Below, piece after piece: positions 4,153-63,167 of a stretch of 64,000 bases of DNA. Origin of the DNA: an uncultured virus (IMG/VR IMGVR_UViG_3300046534_001898) (lineage: Duplodnaviria > Heunggongvirae > Uroviricota > Caudoviricetes); the IMG/VR virus record IMGVR_UViG_3300046534_001898. One strand, 5' to 3'. The stretch's first letter is position 1, and the number at the start of each line of letters is the position of its first letter. Made by a program: the position numbers and the translations under genes. Below the pieces are notes generated by a model that saw nothing but the letters and a program-made list of their open reading frames with translations, was not told the DNA's origin and did no database searches.

Positions 4153-4959
4153 ATGACACAAGAAGGTCACATATTTGATATGGATGATACTTTATTGGTA
4201 TCTCCTTATGTTACAGATTTTGTAAAATTTGATAACAAAGGAATACTAGTGTCTGATCCTAAATTTAGAGAGAAGACTATCGAATACAATATTCACAGGT
4301 TTTGTCGAAAAGTTGTATTGATGGTTTCTGATCTATTCTCTTTAGAAGTCTTTCTAAAAAAACAAAAGGATTACATCATAGTTTGTGATAAAGCAACGGG
4401 AGAGCCTTGTTCTGATCAGTTGATTGATAGCATTCAGAAATTGATAGAAGTAACCGATTTCATGAAGCCTTCTGAAGTAAAGGAGGATTTTTCTTTTGAT
4501 AAGTTTGAGATCAAAGAGATGGATGGGTGGTTTGATGTTGAAGATTCTTTTGTTATTCTTAATGAACCTAGAGGTTTCTACTCATACCAAGATACTATTG
4601 GTATGGAGGGCAATGAGCCTGTGCTTGATATTTACCATAATGTCAAGAATAAAGCCATTCTTACGGGTAGAAACATAAGTCTTCATGGGGACATTGTTAG
4701 AAAATTATTGTATATGGGTATGGATTTACCTAATTATGCTCTATATTGTTTCGATGGTCGTTATAATAAAAATATAAAGCAGTTTAAAGCTGAAGTTGTA
4801 AATATGTTGATTGACCAAAATAATTGGAATGTCGTTCATATGTACGAGGATAAGCTTAATTGGCTTGATTTTATTGAAGCGGCAGTAAAAGAGAAAAACC
4901 CAGAAGTTGAATTTATTGGACACTATATTAGAAACGTTAAAGATAGGAGGGTTATATAG
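4153..4959 (+). CDS. HAD-superfamily phosphatase, similar to the RNA-repair-associated Swiss-army-knife HAD domain
   Basis: FDMDDTL, LTGR, K and YED motifs. Confidence 0.65.
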   Translation: MTQEGHIFDMDDTLLVSPYVTDFVKFDNKGILVSDPKFREKTIEYNIHRFCRKVVLMVSDLFSLEVFLKKQKDYIIVCDKATGEPCSDQLIDSIQKLIEVTDFMKPSEVKEDFSFDKFEIKEMDGWFDVEDSFVILNEPRGFYSYQDTIGMEGNEPVLDIYHNVKNKAILTGRNISLHGDIVRKLLYMGMDLPNYALYCFDGRYNKNIKQFKAEVVNMLIDQNNWNVVHMYEDKLNWLDFIEAAVKEKNPEVEFIGHYIRNVKDRRVI

Positions 4960-20995: not shown

Positions 20996-21451
20996 ATGAA
21001 AAGAAAGAGAGTTTATATCGACATGGACGGAGTAATGTGTGACTTTATGAAAATGAAGTCTCTAAAACTAGATCAAAACCCAAACATGCCTTTCCCTCAA
21101 TCTCAAATTGAATTTTGGATTGATCTAGAGCCTATTGATGGAGCTATTTGGGCTTACAAGAGGTTGGAGAAGAATTTTGAGGTACACATTTTAACCGCAC
21201 CTTCTATATATAACCCTGCATCATACTCTGGAAAGAGAATATGGGTGGAAAAACATTTAGGAATGGATGCTGTTCATAATATGATTCTTTCTTACGATAA
21301 AAGTTTATTGATAGGTGACTACCTTGTTGACGATTCAGATTGGAATGGACAAAGAGATTTCGAAGGAGAATGGATTCAATATCACCAAGCTAAAATGGGT
21401 ACACAACAATGGGAAGAAGTTGTTGCTAAAATAGAAAAAGAAAATGTCTAA
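20996..21451 (+). CDS. 5'(3')-deoxyribonucleotidase (NT5C, HAD family)
   Basis: DMDGV, LTAP, K..WV..H, GDYLVDD. Confidence 0.9.
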   Translation: MKRKRVYIDMDGVMCDFMKMKSLKLDQNPNMPFPQSQIEFWIDLEPIDGAIWAYKRLEKNFEVHILTAPSIYNPASYSGKRIWVEKHLGMDAVHNMILSYDKSLLIGDYLVDDSDWNGQRDFEGEWIQYHQAKMGTQQWEEVVAKIEKENV

Positions 21452-21917
21452 GATAATTTACAAGCAAGGTAATTTGCTTGATCAAACAGAAACACTTGAC
21501 CTCATAGGTCATGGGTGCAATTGCTTTCTAAGTATGGGAGCAGGTATTGCAAAAGAGGTTAAACAAAGATTCAATGAAGCTCACTTAGCTGATCTTGGAA
21601 CTAAATACGGAGATAGAAATAAGTTAGGAGATTACACCTTGGCTGAATACGATGGGTTTAAAATTTTAAACCTATACACTCAATATAAGTATACAAGACA
21701 TGAGGTTGATGTTGACTATGATGCTATAACAAATGTGTTTGCTAAAATAAATGAGGAATATGAAGGTCAGTCTTTAGGGATACCTGTTATTGGAGCAGGT
21801 CTTGCGGGAGGTAATTGGGCAGAAATCGCTGAGATAATTGAGGCTGAAACCCCTGATTTAGATGTTTATGTTTACATCCTTCCGAGAGATAATAATTGGC
21901 ATTATCTTTTGAGTTGA
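21444..21917 (+). CDS. Macro domain protein (ADP-ribose processing)
   Basis: GNLL, HGCNC...MGAGIA, IGAGLAGG. Confidence 0.92.
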   Translation: MSKIIYKQGNLLDQTETLDLIGHGCNCFLSMGAGIAKEVKQRFNEAHLADLGTKYGDRNKLGDYTLAEYDGFKILNLYTQYKYTRHEVDVDYDAITNVFAKINEEYEGQSLGIPVIGAGLAGGNWAEIAEIIEAETPDLDVYVYILPRDNNWHYLLS

Positions 21918-21943: not shown

Positions 21944-22369
21944 ATTGATATATGGATACACCAGAATTAGTTTTAGAATTGCTTCGTCAATTACAAGATC
22001 GAGAGATCGATGAGTTTAAATTTGTTCGAGATGAATCAAGTCCTATGAAGGCGGAGATTTGGGTGAATGGAGAAGTGTATGTTGACCGTAGGATAATTGA
22101 TTCTAATGTGTTAAATGTTATTGGAACCAAAGAGGAAGATAAAGAGTGGAGTAAAAATAAAACAAAAGAACTTCAAGAAAAGAGGATGCAAAGAGCAGAT
22201 AGAAATAGGCTCTTATACCCCCATTAAATCTAGGTTCTTGAAATTAAATTGAAAAAAGATTTGCAAAGTTGTAACATTTTACTTTACTTTGCGTTTTAAT
22301 AAAAGAAGCCAATTCATTTTGGATTTTAAAAAAGTTTTATATATTTGTAATAACAAAAAACAATTAGTT

Positions 22370-23356
22370 ATGAGTAACATGTAGATTAATTCAAAGTTAA
22401 CAGTAGTAACACGACACGATTTTTCGTTCGGTTACCAAATTGCCCAAAGTAATCATGCAACAGCTGATTTCGGGCAGGAATTTCCAGAAGTTAGTAACCA
22501 ATGGAAAGAGGAGTCAAACTCCATCATTGTTCTCACAGTCAAAAATGAGGACGAGCTTATCAAACTCTATGAGAAGCTCAATAAAAATCACAACGTTTCA
22601 TTATTTTTCGAACCTGATATTGATCAGTATACAAGCCTGAGCTTTTATGCCGATGAAAATGCTAGGAAGAAGCTAAGACACCTACCACTTGCTGGTAAGA
22701 AGTCTGGGAAAGTAGATTGTCTAATTTTAGACATGAAGAAGACTCCTCAGACCGATACACAGTCAGTATGGGATCATGGTGTAGCTGTATCAGAAAAATA
22801 CAAGGAACTTGTTTCTTATCTCCGAGGAGAATCAAAATTAACATCTGAATGGAAAATGCCTGATTGGGTAGAAGATAACAAGAAATTCATTCTTGACAAT
22901 CTTTACTCAGACGATATCATGCGACAATATCACGTATACCACGATTGCGGTAAGCCCTACTGCATCGAGTATGATGATGAAGGTCGTAAGCATTTTCCAA
23001 ACCATTCTCAAGTATCATATGACACCTATTTAGATGTTTTTGGTTCTGACGGAAGTAATCAAGCTATTGCCGATTTGATCAAGCACGATATGGATGTGCA
23101 TATGATGAAGGCAGCAGGTGTTGAAGACTTCTGTAATGAAATGGGAGCAAAAAAAGCAATCAGCTTATTAATCACTGCTTTGTGTGAGATTCACGCTAAC
23201 GCAGATATGTTCGGAGGAATTAATTCCACTAGTTTTAAAATAAAATTCAAACAAATCAATAAAAGAGGTAAAGCAATTATTAACTTTTTAAAAGAAAAAA
23301 ACAATGACGATCAAAGAGAAAATCAAAGAGATGGTGAAGTTGCAGAAGCAATATAA
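22370..23356 (+). CDS. Pth2-like peptidyl-tRNA hydrolase fused to an HD domain, with an in-frame TAG at codon 5 (22382-22384)
   Basis: Manual translation MSNM*INSKLTVVTRHDFSFGYQIAQSNHA...IIVLTVKNEDEL...FEPD...LRHLPL is in frame with the 22733 ORF (H...HDCGK...H...HD). Confidence 0.8.
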
Positions 23357-23660
23357 GAACCACAGAAAGACAGTAAACTTTACAGGCGAGAGAATGAAAA
23401 TCAAAAACTGGAGAGGAGAAACTGTAGACCTAATGCCTTCAAGTGCAAACGACAAGGTAAGAGTTACAAAAGAATCTTTAAGACATCACTACATTGCACA
23501 CAAAGTCTTAAGATCAAGATTAACTCTAGAAGAGTTCAAGCAAAACAACATGCTTGATCTAATGGAGCAAAAAAGGAAAGAGGAACCTTCTTGGTCACAG
23601 ATTGAGAAAATTGTTGAAAAGTATCAGAAAGATTTTGTGTGGATTGAAGAAGCAGCATAA
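23304..23660 (+). CDS. Hypothetical basic protein
   Basis: 118-aa ORF directly before the tRNA cluster. Confidence 0.6.
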   Translation: MTIKEKIKEMVKLQKQYKNHRKTVNFTGERMKIKNWRGETVDLMPSSANDKVRVTKESLRHHYIAHKVLRSRLTLEEFKQNNMLDLMEQKRKEEPSWSQIEKIVEKYQKDFVWIEEAA

Positions 23661-23685
23661 TTTTTGAGGGTGAAACTCCCTTTCT

Positions 23686-23740
23686 GTCCCGATGAGAGAT
23701 TGGTCTCATTTACTACGTTCGAATCGTGGTCGGGACACCA
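23686..23740 (+). ncRNA. Anticodon-less mini-tRNA with encoded CCA
   Basis: gtcccga/tcgggac acceptor, one hairpin (loop gattgg), T arm with ttcgaat, ACCA end. Confidence 0.7.
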
Positions 23741-23741
23741 A

Positions 23742-23814
23742 CCCCTTGAAGCTCTATTGGTTGAGCAGCGGTCTCTAAAACCGTAGTGTGCGAGTTCAAG
23801 TCTCGTCAAGGGGG
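23742..23814 (+). tRNA. Amber suppressor tRNA (CUA) with a Trp-like body
   Basis: Full cloverleaf, anticodon arm gcggt-ctCTAaa-accgt, G73, short variable loop. Confidence 0.88.
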
Positions 23815-23819
23815 CAAAT

Positions 23820-23872
23820 GGTGAGGCATCTAGTTGGAGATGTTCGTGAAGGTTCGATCCCTTCTCTCACCA
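23820..23872 (+). ncRNA. Anticodon-less mini-tRNA
   Basis: ggtgagg/tctcacc acceptor, catct-agttgg-agatg hairpin, gaagg-ttcgatc-ccttc T arm. Confidence 0.7.
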
Positions 23873-23876
23873 CAAA

Positions 23877-23927
23877 TGCTGGGATGCTTAGTTGGAAGCA
23901 CATGGGAGTTCGACTCTTCTCTTGGCA
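23877..23927 (+). ncRNA. Anticodon-less mini-tRNA
   Basis: GU-rich acceptor, tgctt-agttgg-aagca hairpin, T loop ttcgact. Confidence 0.65.
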
Positions 23928-23932
23928 CAAAC

Positions 23933-23987
23933 GGAGGGCGCTAAATTGGTAGTGGTAAGTCTTGAGGTTCGAACCCTCTTCCCTCCA
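23933..23987 (+). ncRNA. Anticodon-less mini-tRNA
   Basis: ggaggg/ccctcc acceptor, cgcta-aattgg-tagtg hairpin, gagg-ttcgaac-cctc T arm. Confidence 0.65.
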
Positions 23988-23991
23988 CTAT

Positions 23992-24065
23992 GATCATGTA
24001 GCATTAAGTGGATTATGCAGTCATCTTCGGATGAAAGATTGGAGGTTCGATTCCTTCTATGATCA
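23992..24065 (+). ncRNA. tRNA-like RNA with the anticodon loop replaced by a cUUCGg tetraloop
   Basis: Acceptor, D and T arms present; middle arm is tcatc-ttcg-gatga. Confidence 0.7.
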
Positions 24066-24070
24066 CAAAT

Positions 24071-24121
24071 ACCGAGAACTCAGATGGGAGTTTCGGGGAG
24101 GTTCGAATCCTTCTCTTGGTA
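24071..24121 (+). ncRNA. Anticodon-less mini-tRNA
   Basis: accgaga/tcttggt acceptor, actc-agatgg-gagt hairpin, ggagg-ttcgaat-ccttc T arm. Confidence 0.7.
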
Positions 24122-24126
24122 CAAAT

Positions 24127-24198
24127 GTCCCAATAGCTCAGCGGCAGAGCAATGGTCTCTAAAACCATAGGTCGCAGGTTCGAACCCTGCTTGGGACT
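24127..24198 (+). tRNA. Second amber suppressor tRNA (CUA)
   Basis: Canonical cloverleaf, atggt-ctCTAaa-accat, perfect gtcccaa/ttgggac acceptor, U73. Confidence 0.9.
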
Positions 24199-24517
24199 CT
24201 AATGATGGCAGTAGATAAATATGGTAACAGTATAAATTTAGAAAAGGTTTGGGGAATTGAACACGGCTTTAGTGAAGGTCGATTTGATTCCTCAATTTTT
24301 TCTTGGACTATTTCGAACAAATATAAATCTCAAAGAGCTATGAATCAAGCTTTAAATGATCTCAGAAAACATAATCCAGCAACCGTAAGAACAAGGTCTG
24401 GAAAAGGAGAGTGGACACAGCTTTATAGCCATTATCGACCTGTTCATGTAAATTATAGTTTCTAAATTTGTCTAAACAAATAGAAATTACTATATTTGTA
24501 TTATAAAATCGATACAA

Positions 24518-26689
24518 ATGATAACAGAAGAGAGTAAGAAAGAGATTATTGTTAGAAAGAAAGAGCTTGAAAAAGCCAGAAAACAACTCAAAAAAGAATT
24601 TGTAGGTCTTGATAGTATCATCGATGAAATCATCGAACAAGTTAGGTCTTGGTATATTTTTCCTGACGGTCAAGTTCGACCATCAATCGTAAATCTTTGG
24701 GGTATGACAGGTGTTGGGAAGACTTCTTTAGTTAGAAGGCTGTTTGACATTCTTGATATGTCTGAGAATTTTTTCAAGTTCGATATGGGTGAATACACTT
24801 CTGGGGATTTGAAAATAAAAGATGACTTTTCTGATAAGGTAAAAAATCTTGAAGATCAGCCAGTGATTATTGTTTTCGATGAGTTCCAGATTGGAAGAAC
24901 TATCGATGAGATGGGAATGGAAATCGATAGAAAAAATCTAAGAGTTATTTGGGATTTACTTGATACTGGAAAGTTTGATGTACTGAATTCTTCTTGGTAC
25001 GGAAAAGAGGTTTATCTATTGTACTTTAAAATCTTAAAATTTATTCATGAGGATAATATCAAAGTAAAAAACGGAATCATTACTGAGAGTGGAGAAGAGC
25101 ATGCTAAAATGTTTTTTGAGATAGGAACAAAATTCCTTACTTACGATGAAGCTATGTTAAAGGTGACGGGAAAATCGAAAGTAGTTACTCCTGAGCCAGA
25201 AGTAGTTGAAGAATCAACTTCTGATACCACCAAGAAGAAAAAGAAGAAAAAGAATAAAGAAAAAGCGGTTGACGAGGATAAAAAAATTCAATATCTTATC
25301 CCCACAAACCTTCACTGGGTAATCAAGTCTTTTTGGGAAGACAGGTTCATTAGCAATTATGAGTTTTTGAACTTCATTCGATCTTTAGATGCCGAAGGAA
25401 CTGTTCAGTTTTTATCAGACACTTGCGATAGAGCAATGAAGCCAAAGCTTTATGATTTTTCTAATTCAATTATCTTTGTAATTGGAAACCTTGATAGCGT
25501 TTATTCAATGTCCCGTGAGTCAAACCCAGATGTTGACGCTGATTCGTTCCACGAAAATTCTCTTGATATCACTCAGACCGAAATAAAACAAGCTCTTCAA
25601 GGAAGGTTTAGAATTGAACAGATTGCTAGACTAGGAAATAACCATATTATATACCCAGCCTTCTCTTCTAAAATTTATCAAGATTTGATTGTGCTAGAGT
25701 TAGGGAAGTTAAATGATAAAATTCAAAAGAAGTTCGATCTTACTTTTGATTTTGATCCTTCGGTAAATGAAATCATCTATAAAGAAGGAGTGTTTCCAAC
25801 TCAAGGAGTAAGACCTGTGTTTACAACAATCAGCTCAATCATTGAGTCTTATATCGGAAAGTTCATTTCTCTTTTAATTGAGAAGAACATGATCGATAAT
25901 GTTGATTCAATTAAATGGAGCTACAAGGAGAATGAGCATATTCTGGAATTTTACGATGATAATATCGACTTATTGCTTCGCCAAACCTACCCAGTTAATT
26001 TGAAGGTAGAATCTCTGAGAGAATCAACTGATGATGACAACCAAGCTTTTACCGCAGTTCATGAAGCAGGGCATGCAGTTGCTATGATGGTAGCAATGAA
26101 GATTGTTCCGAAAATGATTCGCAGTAAGACGGCAAACACCTCTGAGGGCTTCTGTGCATCGCAAATGCCAGAGATTCATTCGAAAGTAGTACTGGAGGAT
26201 AGAATTGCTATTTCAGTAGCCGGTCGAGTGGCTGAGCAAGTGATATTTGGTGAAGATAGAATTTCAACAGGAGCTTCTGGAGATATAGCAACAGCTACCG
26301 AAACAGCGATGAAAATGTTGAAGTTTTTAGGAATGAATGCATCGGGAGATATGATCATTTATTCTAGAACAGAAAACAATAACGATAGAGTTGCAAATTC
26401 AAGTACAGAGAAAGTAAATCAAGAGGCAATAACTTTGATTACTAGACAAAAGAATAGAGTGGTAGAGATTTTGAATAGGGAAAAAGTTCTCTTATTGAAG
26501 ATGGCAGAGTATTTAACTTCTCATTCTTTTATTGATGAAGAGAAAGCAATTGAGTTTTATAAGTTGTATGGATCAGATTCAGAACTTGAATTTCTGGATC
26601 AAAAACATTACTATCCTTATAAGAATATTATGTTACAAGAACTTAAGAAGATAGAAGCTGTAAGCAAACTAGACTTAAGTTACAAGTAA
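24518..26689 (+). CDS. Soluble AAA+ ATPase fused to a peptidase M41 (FtsH-type) domain
   Basis: GMTGVGKT, FDEFQ, HEAGH, AGRVAE, GASGD; no transmembrane segment seen. Confidence 0.85.
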   Translation: MITEESKKEIIVRKKELEKARKQLKKEFVGLDSIIDEIIEQVRSWYIFPDGQVRPSIVNLWGMTGVGKTSLVRRLFDILDMSENFFKFDMGEYTSGDLKIKDDFSDKVKNLEDQPVIIVFDEFQIGRTIDEMGMEIDRKNLRVIWDLLDTGKFDVLNSSWYGKEVYLLYFKILKFIHEDNIKVKNGIITESGEEHAKMFFEIGTKFLTYDEAMLKVTGKSKVVTPEPEVVEESTSDTTKKKKKKKNKEKAVDEDKKIQYLIPTNLHWVIKSFWEDRFISNYEFLNFIRSLDAEGTVQFLSDTCDRAMKPKLYDFSNSIIFVIGNLDSVYSMSRESNPDVDADSFHENSLDITQTEIKQALQGRFRIEQIARLGNNHIIYPAFSSKIYQDLIVLELGKLNDKIQKKFDLTFDFDPSVNEIIYKEGVFPTQGVRPVFTTISSIIESYIGKFISLLIEKNMIDNVDSIKWSYKENEHILEFYDDNIDLLLRQTYPVNLKVESLRESTDDDNQAFTAVHEAGHAVAMMVAMKIVPKMIRSKTANTSEGFCASQMPEIHSKVVLEDRIAISVAGRVAEQVIFGEDRISTGASGDIATATETAMKMLKFLGMNASGDMIIYSRTENNNDRVANSSTEKVNQEAITLITRQKNRVVEILNREKVLLLKMAEYLTSHSFIDEEKAIEFYKLYGSDSELEFLDQKHYYPYKNIMLQELKKIEAVSKLDLSYK

Positions 26690-48440: not shown

Positions 48441-49112
48441 ATGAATTACCTAACCTTAGAAGATGCGGAGCATAAAATTTTAGTCGGAGTCCTGCAAGTT
48501 GTTAAAAGTGACAACAAAGCTCCGATTGTACACGAAACAGTTGTTAAGGCTGTTGGTAGATATAAGCATCAGTTTGTTGATCAAGGCGTTGCTTACGGTG
48601 GGCTTGAACAGGAAGTTAAAGAAAGTCAAGAGAATGAGTATACAGGAAGTGGCGATCCTAAAGATATGCTAAATGATCTTTTTCAAGATCAAATACTAGA
48701 ATACGACCAAGTGGATGAAATAGTTCCGTTGGAAGAAGCTGCTTTTAGAGTTGTTGATATAGAGTATGATTCTGAAAGGAGAGAAATTCTTGGAAGAGTT
48801 CAAATACTTGACACTGAGCTTGGACTAGAAGCTCAGAGAAGAATAAATAATGGAATGAAACCCTTTATCTCTCAAGGAGGTATCGAAGGTGCAGTTGATC
48901 CAAATAATATAAAAATAGGAGATTTAAGACCAGTGTATAAAGTGGTTAAGATTCTCCCAAACTACAAACTAAGTTTCATCAAGGCTGATGAGACATTTAC
49001 GACTCTCAAATACACGGAATTGAATAACGATGATGTGGAGAATCCAGATGAAAAATTTAATGAAGAAATAAACACTAATTTAGATGACGATGCAAGAGAA
49101 ATTATCGGATAA
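48441..49112 (+). CDS. Hypothetical protein with a possible degenerate prohead-protease-like fold
   Basis: GRVQILDTELG resembles a T4 gp21 family segment; catalytic motif not evident. Confidence 0.3.
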   Translation: MNYLTLEDAEHKILVGVLQVVKSDNKAPIVHETVVKAVGRYKHQFVDQGVAYGGLEQEVKESQENEYTGSGDPKDMLNDLFQDQILEYDQVDEIVPLEEAAFRVVDIEYDSERREILGRVQILDTELGLEAQRRINNGMKPFISQGGIEGAVDPNNIKIGDLRPVYKVVKILPNYKLSFIKADETFTTLKYTELNNDDVENPDEKFNEEINTNLDDDAREIIG

Positions 49113-50553
49113 GACGGTTCATGGAAAATTGAGCGAGAATGCAAATTATGTATGTGAACTATATAATGCCGAACTAGAAAAGAGAAAAAAAGGACAATTG
49201 CCTGATGGTTTTGAAATCCCACAATTCTTTTTAGAAGGAGATGAAGAAGTTAAGCTTGAAAGGTTCTGGGGAATTTCTTTCTCAATTAATAAACTTACAG
49301 AAGCGCAAGCATATTGTGAAAAGAAGAAACTTAAGAAGTCAATCGGGATCATAAATATCGAAGAAGTATCAGATTCTTTAGCCTTTGATAAGTTCTACTT
49401 TGATTTAGAATATAATTCTTCAGATAAAAAGATTTCTGATTATGACTCTACTGGAGTTTTTAGAATCGACTTGAATGATGGAGACTTCCTTTATATTGCT
49501 CAATGGGCTGCGGGAGAAGGAAGAGAAACTGTTGCTGATGCGGTTGTTATCTCAACATTAGATGCTTACTCTAAATTAAGAGAAGCATTAAATAAGCAGG
49601 ACGTTGTTCGTTCGGTTATCAAGAAAGGCGTTTACAGATTGAGAGAGCATAAGGGCGTTCCTATCTACACGATAGTAAAGGATATGCAGCAAACACCTGT
49701 TATTCACCCTGAGAAGGATAGGGCTGTTAGTCTTATTAAGAACTTCTTTGACAACGTGGATCACTTTGCTAAAGATGGAAGATCGGGAACGAGAAAGGGT
49801 ATTTGGATCGGGCCTCCCGGTACTGGAAAAACTTCTCTTTCACGTCAAATTCTACGTGATTACGGAAAGAAGTTCAATGTCTGTATCACCACCGACCTCG
49901 GAGCTTGTTATCTTCATATGGTAAAAGCTGCCAAGTCAAAAAAATCAACAATCATTGTTTTGGAGGATGCTGAGAACTCTTTATCAAAAGCTAATTCAGA
50001 TGTCTTAAATGTATTGGATGGTATTGATTTACCAAGAAACCCAGCTGGAACGTACATTATTATGACTACCAACAAACCTCAGATGATTGAGAAGCGTATC
50101 CTCATGAGACCGGGTAGGATTGATGATTGGTGTTTCTTCGGAGCGCTTAAAGGAAACAACGCCTTACAATGTGCTAAATTTTATTTCTCTTCTACTCTAT
50201 ACAAAGGTCTCTTGACTGTTGAAGATAAAGAGGGACTAAAGACTGTGAAGACAGTTAAAGGGAAGGAAACTGAGGTAGAGGTTCTTGATAAAGGACTGCT
50301 TGAGATCGTTTCTAACGGCAATAGCGGAATGTCTGGAGCGCAAATCGCAGGTCTTGCTGACTCGATGATTTCTTTCTCTATCTCTAAAAACAAACCTGTT
50401 TCAGTTGAGTTAATCCATGAAGCTAAAAAAGAAATGGAAGGTTACCTTTCTAGTATCGACAAGTTGATTCAAGAAGAGGGTTTACTGAAAGATAATAAAC
50501 TTGGGTTTAATTTGGATGAAGACGATGGGAAATCAGGATTCAAATCATGGTAG
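49084..50553 (+). CDS. AAA+ ATPase
   Basis: GPPGTGKT, VLEDAE, LNVLDG, TTN, RPGRID. Confidence 0.92.
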   Translation: MTMQEKLSDKTVHGKLSENANYVCELYNAELEKRKKGQLPDGFEIPQFFLEGDEEVKLERFWGISFSINKLTEAQAYCEKKKLKKSIGIINIEEVSDSLAFDKFYFDLEYNSSDKKISDYDSTGVFRIDLNDGDFLYIAQWAAGEGRETVADAVVISTLDAYSKLREALNKQDVVRSVIKKGVYRLREHKGVPIYTIVKDMQQTPVIHPEKDRAVSLIKNFFDNVDHFAKDGRSGTRKGIWIGPPGTGKTSLSRQILRDYGKKFNVCITTDLGACYLHMVKAAKSKKSTIIVLEDAENSLSKANSDVLNVLDGIDLPRNPAGTYIIMTTNKPQMIEKRILMRPGRIDDWCFFGALKGNNALQCAKFYFSSTLYKGLLTVEDKEGLKTVKTVKGKETEVEVLDKGLLEIVSNGNSGMSGAQIAGLADSMISFSISKNKPVSVELIHEAKKEMEGYLSSIDKLIQEEGLLKDNKLGFNLDEDDGKSGFKSW

Positions 50554-62594: not shown

Positions 62595-63167
62595 TTAAAA
62601 TTCAGCTTGTTTAAAGCTTTTAAAAACGCAGGATTCTGGCTTAATGCTAATGGTGACTTTGCTGAGATCATCATTACCGTAATCGCTATTACCATAATCG
62701 ACACTTTCTAGTTTGCAATTTGTTAGAGTCTATTTATCTAATGCTACTCCAGCGCAATCAAGGTCTGTAAACGTACAGTCAAAACCTTTGTTTTCAGATA
62801 ACATTTTCTGAATCCCATTAAGAGTAGAGTTGTTTGTTAGTTCCAGAATTTGAATACTCACTGGTAGCCATTCGCACCCTTTAACTGATTCGTTGATTTT
62901 TATTTTAGGTCTATCAGCTGTTTGAACTAGATAGGAATCAATACCGAATTTTTCTGGGAATCTGAATTCAAAACTGTTTTTGAGTTTTGGCTCATTTGCT
63001 AGAGGAGCTAAATTATATTCCTTAATTAACCTTTCTCTTCTTTGGGTTTCTTGGTTTTCTTTTAAGGATGATTTAACTTCCTCTCTAATTGTGTACATTA
63101 AATCTACTCGTTCACGTTGCTCAGGTGTCATGAGGTCTATTGGTATTGGGTTATAGTAATCTGGCAT
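62595..63167 (-). CDS. Tail-tube (gp19-like) protein with an in-frame TAG at 62730-62732
   Basis: Reading through gives DLDCAGVALDK*TLTNCKLESVDYGNSDYGNDDLSKVTISIKPESCVFKSFKQAEF and then TAA. Confidence 0.7.

What the first reader, a model, noticed from the sequence alone, without database searches (positions are those of the whole stretch)
22370..24198. Amber-gated Pth2-HD gene at the head of an amber-suppressor tRNA cluster
Seen: an A-rich initiation region and ATG AGT AAC ATG TAG are followed by an uninterrupted frame. That frame encodes a full Pth2-like domain, missed by the ORF track because it has no ATG/GTG/TTG after the TAG, fused to the HD domain at 22733. Two CUA tRNAs lie within 900 nt of the gene end. 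Established: stop-codon-dependent control exists (prfB frameshift), and minigenes cause peptidyl-tRNA drop-off that Pth recycles. Inference: Pth2-HD is made only when UAG termination fails, either through suppressor feed-forward or RF1 limitation. This would be a third codon-matched sensor.
Basis: partly seen in the sequence, partly recalled or inferred. Interest (0 to 1): 0.88.

Follow-up and report, generated by a model that had tools for sequence, protein, structure and literature searches.

The report
Stop-codon gate on phage tRNA-repair genes
A phage gene for a tRNA-cleaning enzyme begins with a few codons and then a stop codon that sits beside the phage's own stop-reading tRNAs, and the same arrangement recurs in more than a hundred related phage sequences, so it looks like a built-in translational switch that had been overlooked.

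Summary
ATG AGT AAC ATG TAG (22370-22384) runs in frame into a 323-codon open frame with no ATG/GTG/TTG for 116 codons. The product is a Pth2-like domain fused to an HD-fold domain. Two tRNA(CUA) genes lie 386 and 771 nt after the gene's stop.

The early stop is strongly conserved. I found 189 distinct homologous Pth2-like or HD-like frames with a leader of ATG plus 0-11 codons followed by a stop. The stop is TAG in 182, TGA in 6 and TAA in 1 (doubtful). These come from uncultured phage contigs and from cultured phages pT24, Arash, GAP32, XacN1 and RsoM2USA.

- Only 62 of 2197 other long frames in the same loci show the pattern.
- Where a Shine-Dalgarno core exists, it is spaced for the leader ATG.
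- The codon after the stop is a canonical start in 4 of 189.
- Where a suppressor tRNA was in reach, stop and anticodon always matched: TAG with CUA in 43 sources, TGA with UCA in 2, none crossed. The tRNA is a median 427 nt away and usually co-oriented.

Best reading (about 0.7): these genes are translated only by read-through, chiefly by the phage's own suppressor tRNA. No experiment shows this yet. I found no report of it.

The parts
22318..22347 (+). Promoter-like motif of the Bacteroidota type (TTTG, 18 nt, TAnnTTTG), 22 nt upstream of the leader ATG
   Evidence: 15 matches in the window against 3.0 expected; 0 of 100 shuffles reach 15. One match is here and one is before the next gene (24467-24498). 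The consensus itself is recalled, not tested.
22370..22381 (+). Four-codon leader ATG AGT AAC ATG, preceded by an A-rich stretch
   Evidence: Homologues have leaders of 1-12 codons including the ATG, and 156 of 189 have 2-4 codons.
22382..22384 (+). In-frame TAG (the gate), followed by ATT
   Evidence: The stop is conserved as TAG in 182, TGA in 6 and TAA in 1 of 189 distinct gated homologous frames. Other runs confirm the bases.
22385..22732 (+). Pth2-like domain and linker (residues 6-121 of the read-through product)
   Evidence: Pfam PF01981 at 26.6 bits; PDB profile hit 2zv3 at E 4e-7; Z 13-14 to solved Pth2 structures. In the AF2 model the first strand starts at residue 9 and residues 1-5 are disordered.
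22733..23356 (+). HD-fold domain (from the invariant Met122) plus the TAA stop
   Evidence: Z 16.2, rmsd 2.6 over 165 residues to residues 250-448 of 3wfr; Z 9-11 to HD hydrolases. Invariant H136, H191, D192, D240. No Pfam HD hit. PHROG 14850, function unknown, E 5.8e-69.
23304..23660 (+). 118-aa ORF of unknown function, overlapping the end of the Pth2-HD gene by 53 nt
   Evidence: no Pfam or PHROG match.
23686..23740 (+). Mini tRNA-like unit (acceptor, D-like and T arms; no anticodon arm); ends in ACCA
   Evidence: fold at -21.7 kcal/mol, z -2.66; acceptor and T stems with compensatory changes among the five units.
23742..23815 (+). tRNA with anticodon CUA (amber suppressor 1)
   Evidence: ARAGORN; Rfam tRNA 57.8 bits, anticodon loop CUCUAAA.
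23820..23991 (+). Three further mini tRNA-like units (23820-23874, 23878-23930, 23933-23991)
23992..24066 (+). tRNA-shaped gene whose anticodon loop is replaced by a UUCG tetraloop
   Evidence: Rfam tRNA 39.5 bits; cloverleaf with a 5-bp stem closed by a 4-nt loop.
24071..24123 (+). Fifth mini tRNA-like unit
24127..24199 (+). tRNA with anticodon CUA (amber suppressor 2)
   Evidence: (Rfam tRNA 71.7 bits).
24264..24291 (+). First terminator-like site after the tRNA array. None lies between the gene and the tRNAs, so the gene and its suppressors may share a transcript (inferred).

Best explanation
The gene at 22370-23356 is a translationally gated gene.

Proposed mechanism:
1. Ribosomes start at the leader ATG.
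2. After three more codons they meet UAG.
3. They make the Pth2-HD protein only if the UAG is decoded instead of terminated.
4. The decoder is most likely one of the two tRNA(CUA) genes encoded just downstream, probably on the same transcript.

This makes a coherent feed-forward unit: the enzyme appears only once the phage's own suppressor tRNA is transcribed, processed, charged and able to outcompete RF1.

The gate sits in a disordered N-terminal tail, so the residue inserted should not matter.

The gated proteins are a Pth2-like ester hydrolase and an HD-fold domain closest to the C-terminal part of a class II tRNA nucleotidyltransferase. Both plausibly act on tRNA 3' ends.

Shown here: the anatomy, its conservation, its specificity to these two gene families, the match of stop type to suppressor type, and the physical linkage of gate and tRNA.

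Inferred: that read-through occurs, that the phage tRNA does it, the co-transcription, the enzymatic activities, and the purpose (timing, or matching the enzyme level to suppressor activity).
For: 1. Conservation.
- Of 44 sources with a Pth2-domain tblastn hit, 43 have an in-frame stop 0-15 codons before the domain, no ATG/GTG/TTG in between, and an in-frame ATG 1-11 codons upstream. The stop is TAG in 39, TGA in 4 and TAA in 0.
- Profile search over 68 non-duplicate sources found 62 Pth2-like frames. 44 are TAG-gated and 5 are TGA-gated. 6 more lie in HD-first fusions that are TAG-gated at their start.
- A separate metagenome sample gave 56 of 59 Pth2-like frames TAG-gated.
- Stand-alone HD-like genes carry the same leader: 35 TAG and 2 TGA of 67 frames, with 20 more inside gated fusions; and 41 of 71 frames, with 22 more in fusions.

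2. Specificity.
- 66 of 83 target frames have an ATG within 11 codons before a bounding TAG, against 62 of 2197 other frames of at least 100 codons.
- TAA is never the gate in the viral set, although TAA ends 1047 of those 2197 frames and TAG only 306.

3. Where translation starts.
- An SD core lies 4-10 nt (median 7) before the leader ATG in 60 of 189 gated frames. In those frames it is at least 15 nt from the codon after the stop.
- That codon is ATG or GTG in only 4 of 189.
- In the window, a promoter-like motif ends 22 nt before the leader ATG.

4. The stretch after the stop is coding.
- Between L052, L062 and L064 the 12 codons between the TAG and the first Met differ mostly at synonymous positions (sequences).
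- The first strand of the Pth2 fold begins 4 codons after the TAG.

5. Match with suppressors (131 non-duplicate sources with a gated gene).
- 43 TAG-gated sources have tRNA(CUA) in the fetched DNA.
- 2 TGA-gated sources have tRNA(UCA).
- None is crossed.
- The median distance from tRNA to gated gene is 427 nt; 25 of 45 lie within 500 nt; 44 of 45 are on the same strand.
- Whole-record scans found tRNA(CUA) elsewhere in three large records whose 20-kb flanks had none: G005, G006 and G007.

6. Suppression-friendly context. The base after the stop is A in 145, G in 35, C in 8 and T in 1 of 189. That purines favour amber suppression in E. coli is recalled (Bossi 1983; Miller and Albertini 1983), not tested.

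7. Cultured phages show the same arrangement.
- pT24, Arash and GAP32 each have a gated Pth2-like gene and a tRNA(CUA).
- XacN1 ORF364 and two RsoM2USA genes are gated. Their papers report CUA suppressor tRNAs, with no identified target in XacN1 (passages read).
Against: - No expression, proteomic or reporter data exist; no RNA run holds this DNA.
- Two complete genomes with gated genes (G004 at 373 kb and LR745206.1 at 634 kb) have no tRNA(CUA) at ARAGORN's default threshold among all Rfam tRNA hits.
- Only sub-threshold candidates with a CUA loop appear when the threshold is relaxed, and I relaxed it only on four fragments that I had picked by a pattern. The G004 candidate scores 25.4 bits against Rfam's 29.
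- G008 (83% complete) also shows none.
- 82 of 131 gated sources have no suppressor in the DNA I fetched, although most are fragments or 12-20 kb windows.
- The codon after the stop is ATT in 93 of 189 frames. ATT is a weak start codon, and this preference is unexplained.
- The invariant Met122 could allow gate-independent synthesis of the HD half.
- Some homologous proteins have ordinary N-termini (8 of 20). I could not see their DNA.
- In mycobacteriophages Myrna and Grungle, the TAG is followed directly by a GTG that is well spaced from the SD, so there the gene may simply start after the stop.
- The Pth2 lysine of the GK motif aligns with Tyr22 in this subfamily. The enzymatic activity may therefore differ from peptidyl-tRNA hydrolysis. 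That this lysine is catalytic is recalled.
Confidence: 0.7

Rival explanations
1. The leader is a mini-ORF that terminates at the stop. The real protein starts at the next codon (ATT in the window), either by direct weak initiation or by termination-reinitiation. This would give low, possibly IF3-sensitive expression.
For: - The codon after the stop is ATT, ATA, ATC, CTG, ATG or GTG in a majority of frames, with ATT alone in 93 of 189.
- In mycobacteriophages Myrna and Grungle the stop is followed by GTG at good SD spacing.
- AUU is a known rare start codon (infC; recalled).
Against: - In many frames the codon after the stop is GTT, GTA, AAC, AAT or ACN, which are not start codons.
- SD cores are spaced for the leader ATG and lie at least 15 nt from the codon after the stop.
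- Leaders of up to 12 codons exist.
- If only termination mattered, TAA should be the commonest leader stop in these AT-rich genomes. It is essentially absent: 0 in the viral set and 1 doubtful case in the metagenome set.
- Stop type co-varies with suppressor anticodon.
Confidence: 0.1
2. The gate senses release-factor activity rather than a suppressor. UAG is read only by RF1 and UGA only by RF2. When that factor is scarce or inhibited during infection, near-cognate host tRNAs read through and the enzyme is made. The nearby suppressor tRNAs would then be helpers or have other targets.
For: - The gate is always a stop read by a single release factor (TAG or TGA) and not TAA.
- Two complete genomes lack a clear tRNA(CUA).
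- The precedent is prfB, whose early UGA senses RF2 (recalled).
- Very short nascent chains terminate poorly (recalled from minigene work).
Against: - The tight linkage and co-orientation of a matching suppressor tRNA (median 427 nt; 44 of 45 on the same strand; no crossed pairs) is not expected if the tRNA is irrelevant.
- Near-cognate read-through in bacteria is usually very inefficient (recalled).
- The two exceptions carry sub-threshold CUA candidates.
Confidence: 0.12
3. The phage simply uses a changed genetic code (TAG as a sense codon, as in code 15), and this TAG is one ordinary sense codon among many.
For: - Phage-wide TAG or TGA recoding with suppressor tRNAs is well documented (Borges et al. 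preprint, passages read).
- Some TGA-gated loci such as L022 show several other frames bounded by TGA with nearby ATGs.
Against: - In the 64-kb window, reading TAG as sense changes nothing else of substance. This is the only start-less frame behind a TAG.
- At least three ORFs end in TAG: 4153..4959, 49084..50553 and 62730..63167(-).
- The stop is always at the same place, the first few codons, of the same two gene families.
- XacN1 and RsoM2USA are described as standard-code phages with orphan suppressors.
Confidence: 0.05
4. The gene is a pseudogene, or the TAG is a sequencing error.
For: None beyond the presence of a stop.
Against: - The sequence is identical in contigs of two other runs.
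- The frame is intact for 323 codons and the fold is predicted with confidence (pLDDT 92.1).
- The same stop occurs in 189 distinct homologous frames.
Confidence: 0.01

Closest known systems
Stop-codon recoding in phages (TAG or TGA read by phage suppressor tRNAs; crAss-like, Lak and other gut phages)
   Same: A phage-encoded suppressor tRNA decodes in-frame stops in phage genes. Authors have proposed that this delays expression until the suppressor is made (preprint 10.1101/2021.08.26.457843, passages read).
   Different: - There, a quarter to most genes carry many in-frame stops, mainly structural and lysis genes. Here there is one stop, at codon 2-13, in one or two genes per genome.
- The gated genes are always the same two families, both tRNA-related, in genomes that otherwise use the standard code.
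- That preprint's main text does not contain the word 'hydrolase'.
prfB (RF2) autoregulation
   Same: An early in-frame stop in a translation-factor gene makes synthesis depend on how well that stop is terminated.
   Different: prfB needs a +1 frameshift at CUU UGA with an internal SD (recalled). Here the frame continues unshifted, so the stop must be decoded. A matching suppressor tRNA is encoded beside the gene. No feedback from the product onto termination has been shown.
Lambda bar and other two- or three-codon minigenes
   Same: An SD or A-rich leader, an ATG, one to three codons and a stop. Such minigenes release peptidyl-tRNA that Pth must recycle (recalled). The gated enzyme here is Pth-like.
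   Different: Minigenes are followed by nothing. Here the minigene is in frame with, and directly abuts, a conserved coding region. No drop-off has been measured.
Engineered suppressor-tRNA feed-forward 'leak dampener' (PMC7969014)
   Same: A gene with an amber codon and the suppressor tRNA are driven together, so the protein appears only when both are expressed (listing and start of abstract seen).
   Different: That is a synthetic circuit in E. coli. The present arrangement is natural and widespread. Co-transcription is only inferred, from the lack of a terminator-like site between the gene and the tRNAs.
Leaky read-through in RNA phages and retroviruses (Qbeta A1, MuLV gag-pol)
   Same: Decoding of a stop yields a longer protein.
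   Different: Those use host tRNAs at low efficiency to add a C-terminal extension to an abundant protein (recalled). Here nothing useful is made without read-through, and the virus brings its own tRNA.

Membership tests
Pth2 (peptidyl-tRNA hydrolase 2, PF01981) | Sequence match above the curated threshold | tested here: met
   26.6 bits against a cut-off of 23, residues 9-74. Profile of 21 homologues against PDB: 2zv3 at E 4e-7, covering 3-114 of 115 residues.
Pth2 (peptidyl-tRNA hydrolase 2, PF01981) | Pth2 / Bit1 fold | tested here: met
   Z 13.3-14.4, rmsd 2.0-2.2 over 101-105 residues to 3erj, 1q7s, 2zv3, 1wn2 and 1xty. The model has pLDDT 92.1.
Pth2 (peptidyl-tRNA hydrolase 2, PF01981) | Conserved Lys of the GK motif and Asp of the RDAG motif (reported as catalytic; recalled) | tested here: not met
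   In the alignment to 2zv3, the GK lysine aligns with Tyr22 (the window has GYQ) and the Asp aligns with invariant Glu81. Other gated subfamilies (L025, L039, L040) keep GKL/GKC...Q.GHA. The activity of the window's subfamily is therefore uncertain.
HD-domain phosphohydrolase superfamily | HD fold | tested here: met
   Z 16.2 to 3wfr residues 250-448, and Z 9-11.5 to PPX/GppA, PhnZ, PgpH, YfbR and OxsA, covering model residues 112-306. Helical domains can reach middling Z by chance, but Z 16 stands above that.
HD-domain phosphohydrolase superfamily | H...HD...D metal-binding residues | tested here: inconclusive
   H136, H191, D192 and D240 are invariant in 21 sequences and fit the pattern. 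I did not verify their structural equivalence to the metal ligands.
HD-domain phosphohydrolase superfamily | Match to a Pfam HD model | tested here: not met
   No HD family at E<=10. The only match is PHROG 14850, of unknown function.
Phage alternative genetic code (code 15 or code 4) | Many genes with conserved in-frame TAG or TGA; that stop rarely used as a terminator | tested here: not met
   There is one such gene in the 64 kb, and at least three ORFs end in TAG. Only the window was tested; no whole genome is held.
Pyrrolysine system (ARAGORN labels the tRNAs 'Pyl') | Atypical tRNA-Pyl architecture and a PylRS with pyl biosynthesis genes | tested here: inconclusive
   Both tRNAs fit the general tRNA model well (71.7 and 57.8 bits, with a standard cloverleaf). 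The label reflects only the anticodon. I did not search the window for PylRS.
prfB-type programmed frameshift | The downstream frame is shifted by +1 relative to the leader | tested here: not met
   Leader, stop and coding region are in one frame.

The most novel reading that the evidence does not exclude
The 'orphan' suppressor tRNAs of standard-code jumbo phages may exist largely to operate a dedicated translational switch. In this switch a tRNA(CUA) or tRNA(UCA) gene and a stop-gated pair of tRNA-3'-end enzymes (Pth2-like and HD-like) form a portable, self-contained module.

The module would report whether phage tRNAs are being made, charged and able to beat the release factor. It would then license, or homeostatically limit, tRNA repair or counter-defence enzymes accordingly. 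If the enzyme acts on the suppressor itself, the loop would be analogous to prfB.

The anticodon-less mini-tRNAs packed between the two suppressors in this window could be further substrates or decoys of the same module.
Probability: 0.3. Interest if true: 0.9.

Novelty: new variant of a known kind. Interest (0 to 1): 0.86.

Why it matters
- **A target for orphan suppressors.** Many large phages that use the standard code carry amber-suppressor tRNAs with no known target. The XacN1 authors read through 18 amber stops in silico and found none. A conserved, position-specific stop at the head of two tRNA-related gene families gives these tRNAs a concrete target.
- **An annotation fix.** These genes are routinely mis-annotated. 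Examples are truncated starts in pT24 and GAP32, a gene split in Arash, and an unannotated gap in RsoM2USA.
- **A natural circuit.** The arrangement is a natural counterpart of engineered suppressor-tRNA feed-forward circuits.
- **Testable.** It can be tested directly in cultured phages.
- **A possible recoding precursor.** It may show how a minimal, single-gene use of a suppressor precedes genome-wide recoding.

Tried and rejected
- **Own genome:** none is held for this window, so TAG use outside the 64 kb could not be assessed.
- **Near-identical DNA in the phage collection:** no match.
- **First locus search:** a single-sequence query gave only one locus. An alignment query was needed.
- **Amino-acid identity of the two CUA tRNAs:** global alignment to 1021 tRNAs from the loci gave no clear nearest type. 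Left undetermined.
- **Initiator-like suppressor that starts at UAG:** considered and rejected by reading the tRNAs. Both have a paired 1:72 and lack three G:C pairs at the base of the anticodon stem. The criteria are recalled.
- **Frameshift or hopping:** rejected because the frame is continuous.
- **Covariance model of the five mini tRNA-like units:** apart from the window's own units, it found only two weak matches among 68 sources, L006 20280-20333 (E 9e-4) and L049 6451-6509 (E 3.5e-3). A conserved association with the module is therefore not shown.
- **RNA evidence:** no RNA holder was listed for this DNA.
- **Earlier notes of this scan:** three look-ups returned nothing.
- **Literature:** five searches and passages of four papers gave no report of an early stop in phage Pth2 or HD genes. 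Subscription journals and supplements were not searched.
- **Structure prediction:** a first attempt was not accepted. It was repeated after the stated wait.
Full report
**1. What is in the window**

At 22370 the + strand reads ATG AGT AAC ATG TAG ATT AAT TCA AAG. From the codon after the TAG the frame stays open to TAA at 23354-23356. No ATG, GTG or TTG occurs in that frame for 116 codons after the TAG. ORF lists under table 11 therefore show only the distal 207-codon piece, 22733..23356.

Read through, the product has 328 residues.
- Residues 9-74 match Pfam PTH2 above its curated cut-off: 26.6 against 23 bits.
- A profile of 21 homologues matches the solved Pth2 of M. jannaschii over its whole length, at E 4e-7.
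- An AlphaFold2 model built on that alignment is confident (mean pLDDT 92.1). Residues 1-5 are disordered and the first strand starts at residue 9.
- The N-terminal domain superposes on Pth2/Bit1 structures at Z 13-14 and rmsd about 2.1.
- The C-terminal domain (residues 112-312) superposes best on residues 250-448 of a class II tRNA nucleotidyltransferase-type 'tRNA processing enzyme' (3wfr; Z 16.2, rmsd 2.6, 165 residues). It then superposes on canonical HD hydrolases at Z 9-11.5.
- No Pfam HD model matches, but H136, H191-D192 and D240 are invariant.

ARAGORN and Rfam agree on two tRNAs with anticodon CUA at 23742-23815 and 24127-24199.

The TAG is not an error. Contigs of two other runs cover it without a difference.

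**2. The surroundings**

- A promoter-like motif of the type recalled for Bacteroidota (TTTG, 17-21 nt, TAnnTTTG) ends 22 nt before the leader ATG. The motif is enriched in the window: 15 found against 3.0 expected.
- No terminator-like site lies between the gene and the tRNAs. The first follows the array, at 24264.
- Between and around the two suppressors lie five 53-59-nt units that fold as an acceptor stem plus a D-like arm plus a T arm, with no anticodon arm.
- There is also one tRNA-shaped gene with a UUCG tetraloop in place of the anticodon loop.
- Upstream genes encode an NT5C-type nucleotidase and a weak Macro-domain protein. Downstream lies an FtsH-like AAA+/M41 protease.
- Apart from this gene, the window reads well under the standard code. 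At least three ORFs end in TAG.

**3. Conservation of the early stop**

The first three relatives I opened all showed the same thing:
- LR745206.1: ATG AAC AAT TAG ATT
- Tenacibaculum phage pT24: ATG AAA TAG ATA
- Salmonella phage Arash: ATG CTG TAG AAC

A scan of viral contigs with an alignment query gave 72 loci. Of 44 sources with a Pth2-domain hit, 43 have an in-frame stop 0-15 codons before the domain, no canonical start in between, and an in-frame ATG 1-11 codons upstream. The stop is TAG in 39, TGA in 4 and TAA in 0. L028 is the exception.

Unexpectedly, the HD-like domain carries the same leader when it is encoded as a separate gene. So do more divergent Pth2-like genes that tblastn had missed.

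Counts from a profile search over all stop-to-stop frames:

| Sample | Family | Frames | TAG-gated | TGA-gated | Inside gated fusions | Other |
|---|---|---|---|---|---|---|
| 68 non-duplicate sources | Pth2-like | 62 | 44 | 5 (one doubtful) | 6 (HD-first fusions, TAG-gated at their start) | 7 |
| 68 non-duplicate sources | HD-like | 67 | 35 | 2 | 20 | 10 (ordinary starts) |
| 80 metagenome loci, duplicates removed | Pth2-like | 59 | 56 | 0 | not applicable | 3 (one a doubtful TAA case) |
| 80 metagenome loci, duplicates removed | HD-like | 71 | 41 | 0 | 22 | 8 |

Pooled, there are 189 distinct gated frames: TAG in 182, TGA in 6 and TAA in 1 (doubtful).

As a control, only 62 of 2197 other frames of at least 100 codons in the same loci have an ATG within 11 codons before a bounding TAG, against 66 of 83 target frames. 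TAA ends 1047 of those background frames and TAG only 306. The choice of TAG as the gate is therefore not compositional.

A 93%-identical relative of the window's protein has the leader ATG CGT AAC ACT TAG ATT. Two leader codons have changed, while the stop and the next codon are kept.

**4. Where translation starts, and whether the region after the stop is coding**

- In the 60 of 189 frames that have a Shine-Dalgarno core, it lies 4-10 nt (median 7) before the leader ATG and at least 15 nt from the codon after the stop.
- Leaders reach 12 codons.
- The codon after the stop is a canonical start in only 4 of 189. It is ATT in 93, and in the rest often GTT, GTA, AAC, AAT or ACN.
- Between L052, L062 and L064, the 12 codons between the TAG and the first Met of the HD-like gene differ mostly at synonymous sites (sequences), as expected of translated sequence.
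- In the Pth2-type genes the fold begins a few codons after the stop.

Together these points say that ribosomes load at the leader ATG and must decode the stop to make the protein.

**5. Link to suppressor tRNAs**

Among 131 non-duplicate sources with a gated gene:
- 43 TAG-gated sources have a tRNA(CUA) in the DNA I hold.
- 2 TGA-gated sources have a tRNA(UCA).
- No source has the crossed combination.
- The tRNA is a median 427 nt from the gated gene. It is within 500 nt in 25 of 45 sources and on the same strand in 44 of 45.
- The remaining 86 sources show none, but most are short contigs or 12-20 kb windows.

Whole-record scans located a tRNA(CUA) far from the gene in G005, G006 and G007.

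Two complete genomes, G004 and LR745206.1, have none at default settings. A pattern search followed by a relaxed ARAGORN threshold, applied to four picked fragments, finds a tRNA-like gene with a CUCUAAA loop 3.4 kb upstream of the gated genes in G004. Rfam scores it at 25.4 bits, below its gathering score. A weaker candidate turns up in LR745206.1. I regard these two genomes as unresolved rather than as clean counter-examples.

Cultured phages fit the pattern:
- GAP32 has a gated Pth2-like gene, annotated in truncated form, and a tRNA(CUA) 2.8 kb downstream.
- Arash has a tRNA whose anticodon loop reads CUA although it is annotated tRNA-Phe.
- XacN1 ORF364 (an HD-Pth2 fusion) is gated. Its paper reports CUA suppressors and says no target could be found.
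- RsoM2USA has a gated HD-like gene and a gated Pth2-like gene that lies in an unannotated gap. Its paper also reports a CUA suppressor.

**6. Mechanism**

The best-supported reading is suppressor-dependent read-through of a leader stop, forming a feed-forward unit with the adjacent tRNA.

The early position has two advantages:
- It puts the inserted residue in a disordered tail.
- It wastes only a two- to four-residue peptide when the gate is closed.

The base after the stop is a purine in 180 of 189 frames. This matches the context recalled to favour amber suppression.

Why these enzymes are gated is inference. Possibilities:
- timing after tRNA expression;
- matching a peptidyl- or acyl-tRNA clean-up activity to the amount of read-through the suppressor causes;
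- a homeostatic loop, if the enzyme acts on the suppressor itself.

The window's Pth2 subfamily lacks the GK lysine, so its substrate may not be ordinary peptidyl-tRNA.

**7. Comparison and novelty**

The principle, a phage suppressor tRNA reading in-frame stops as a regulatory delay, has been proposed for recoded gut phages. It has also been engineered as a feed-forward leak dampener (listing only).

What I did not find in print is a single, position-fixed stop at the head of Pth2-like and HD-like genes. This arrangement is conserved across phages with Bacteroidota-type and SD-type leaders, and it is physically coupled to a matching suppressor tRNA in otherwise standard-code genomes. The basis for 'not in print' is five searches and passages of four papers.

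I file it as a new variant of a known kind.

**8. Verdict**

Interest is high, because it proposes a target for orphan phage suppressor tRNAs and is directly testable in cultured phages.

Noticed in passing
window 23686-24123: There are five tandem 53-59-nt tRNA-like units with acceptor, D-like and T arms but no anticodon arm. One tRNA-shaped gene (23992-24066) has a UUCG tetraloop in place of the anticodon loop. All are packed between and around the two CUA tRNAs. A covariance model of the five units found only two weak matches in 67 other sources.
   Followed up: partly
L032 8981-9530 (record G004): Three tRNA-like genes share one acceptor/T-arm sequence but carry 22- to 54-nt insertions, or nothing recognisable, in place of the anticodon loop. 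They lie directly upstream of the gated Pth2 gene. A sub-threshold tRNA with a CUA loop lies at L032 6485-6558.
   Followed up: partly
L133 about 1171-1179 and L134 about 1195-1203: Mycobacteriophages Myrna and Grungle have GTG TAG or ATG TAG immediately before the annotated GTG start of their Pth2 gene. Grungle has a tRNA annotated 'Pyl' (anticodon CUA) about 300 nt downstream. The SD spacing favours the GTG after the stop, so these may be ungated.
   Followed up: partly
L001, L017, L023, L027, L030-L032, L038, L043, L048: In several phages the Pth2-like and HD-like parts are separated by 480-1000 nt of other sequence, and each part has its own ATG-leader-TAG. In L048 a 5' fragment of the HD-like gene is followed by unrelated sequence and then a second full copy, which suggests an inserted element.
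   Followed up: no
L005 9030 and L013 9029: A 311-322-codon ORF with repeated CPxHG...GC.KC motifs and an endonuclease-like C-terminus sits just upstream of the gated gene. It is itself preceded by an ATG-leader-TAG-ATT, as if an inserted homing-endonuclease-like gene had duplicated the leader.
   Followed up: no
L111, L124, L126 and L221 (records G005, G007, LR745206.1): ARAGORN reports tRNAs with four-base anticodons (ggaa, acat, attc, gtag), and several with two-base anticodon loops, in the huge-phage tRNA clusters. These are possible frameshift suppressors or artefacts.
   Followed up: no
L003 3283-3357 (Salmonella phage Arash): The tRNA annotated tRNA-Phe in the record has the anticodon loop CUCUAAA, that is, anticodon CUA.
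   Followed up: yes
L132 1468-1913 (Ralstonia phage RsoM2USA); L002 3001-3087 (pT24); L131 2136-2231 (GAP32): Annotation gaps or truncated starts are caused by the early TAG. The RsoM2USA Pth2-like gene is not annotated at all. The pT24 and GAP32 genes are annotated from internal start codons.
   Followed up: yes
window 20996-21917 and 24518-26689: The neighbours of the module are an NT5C-type 5'-nucleotidase, a weak Macro-domain protein (21.7 bits against a cut-off of 22) and an FtsH-like AAA+/peptidase M41 protein.
   Followed up: no
window, whole: There are 23 tRNA genes in 64 kb, in several clusters with duplicated isoacceptors. The same DNA occurs in ice, sediment and seawater metagenome runs.
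   Followed up: no
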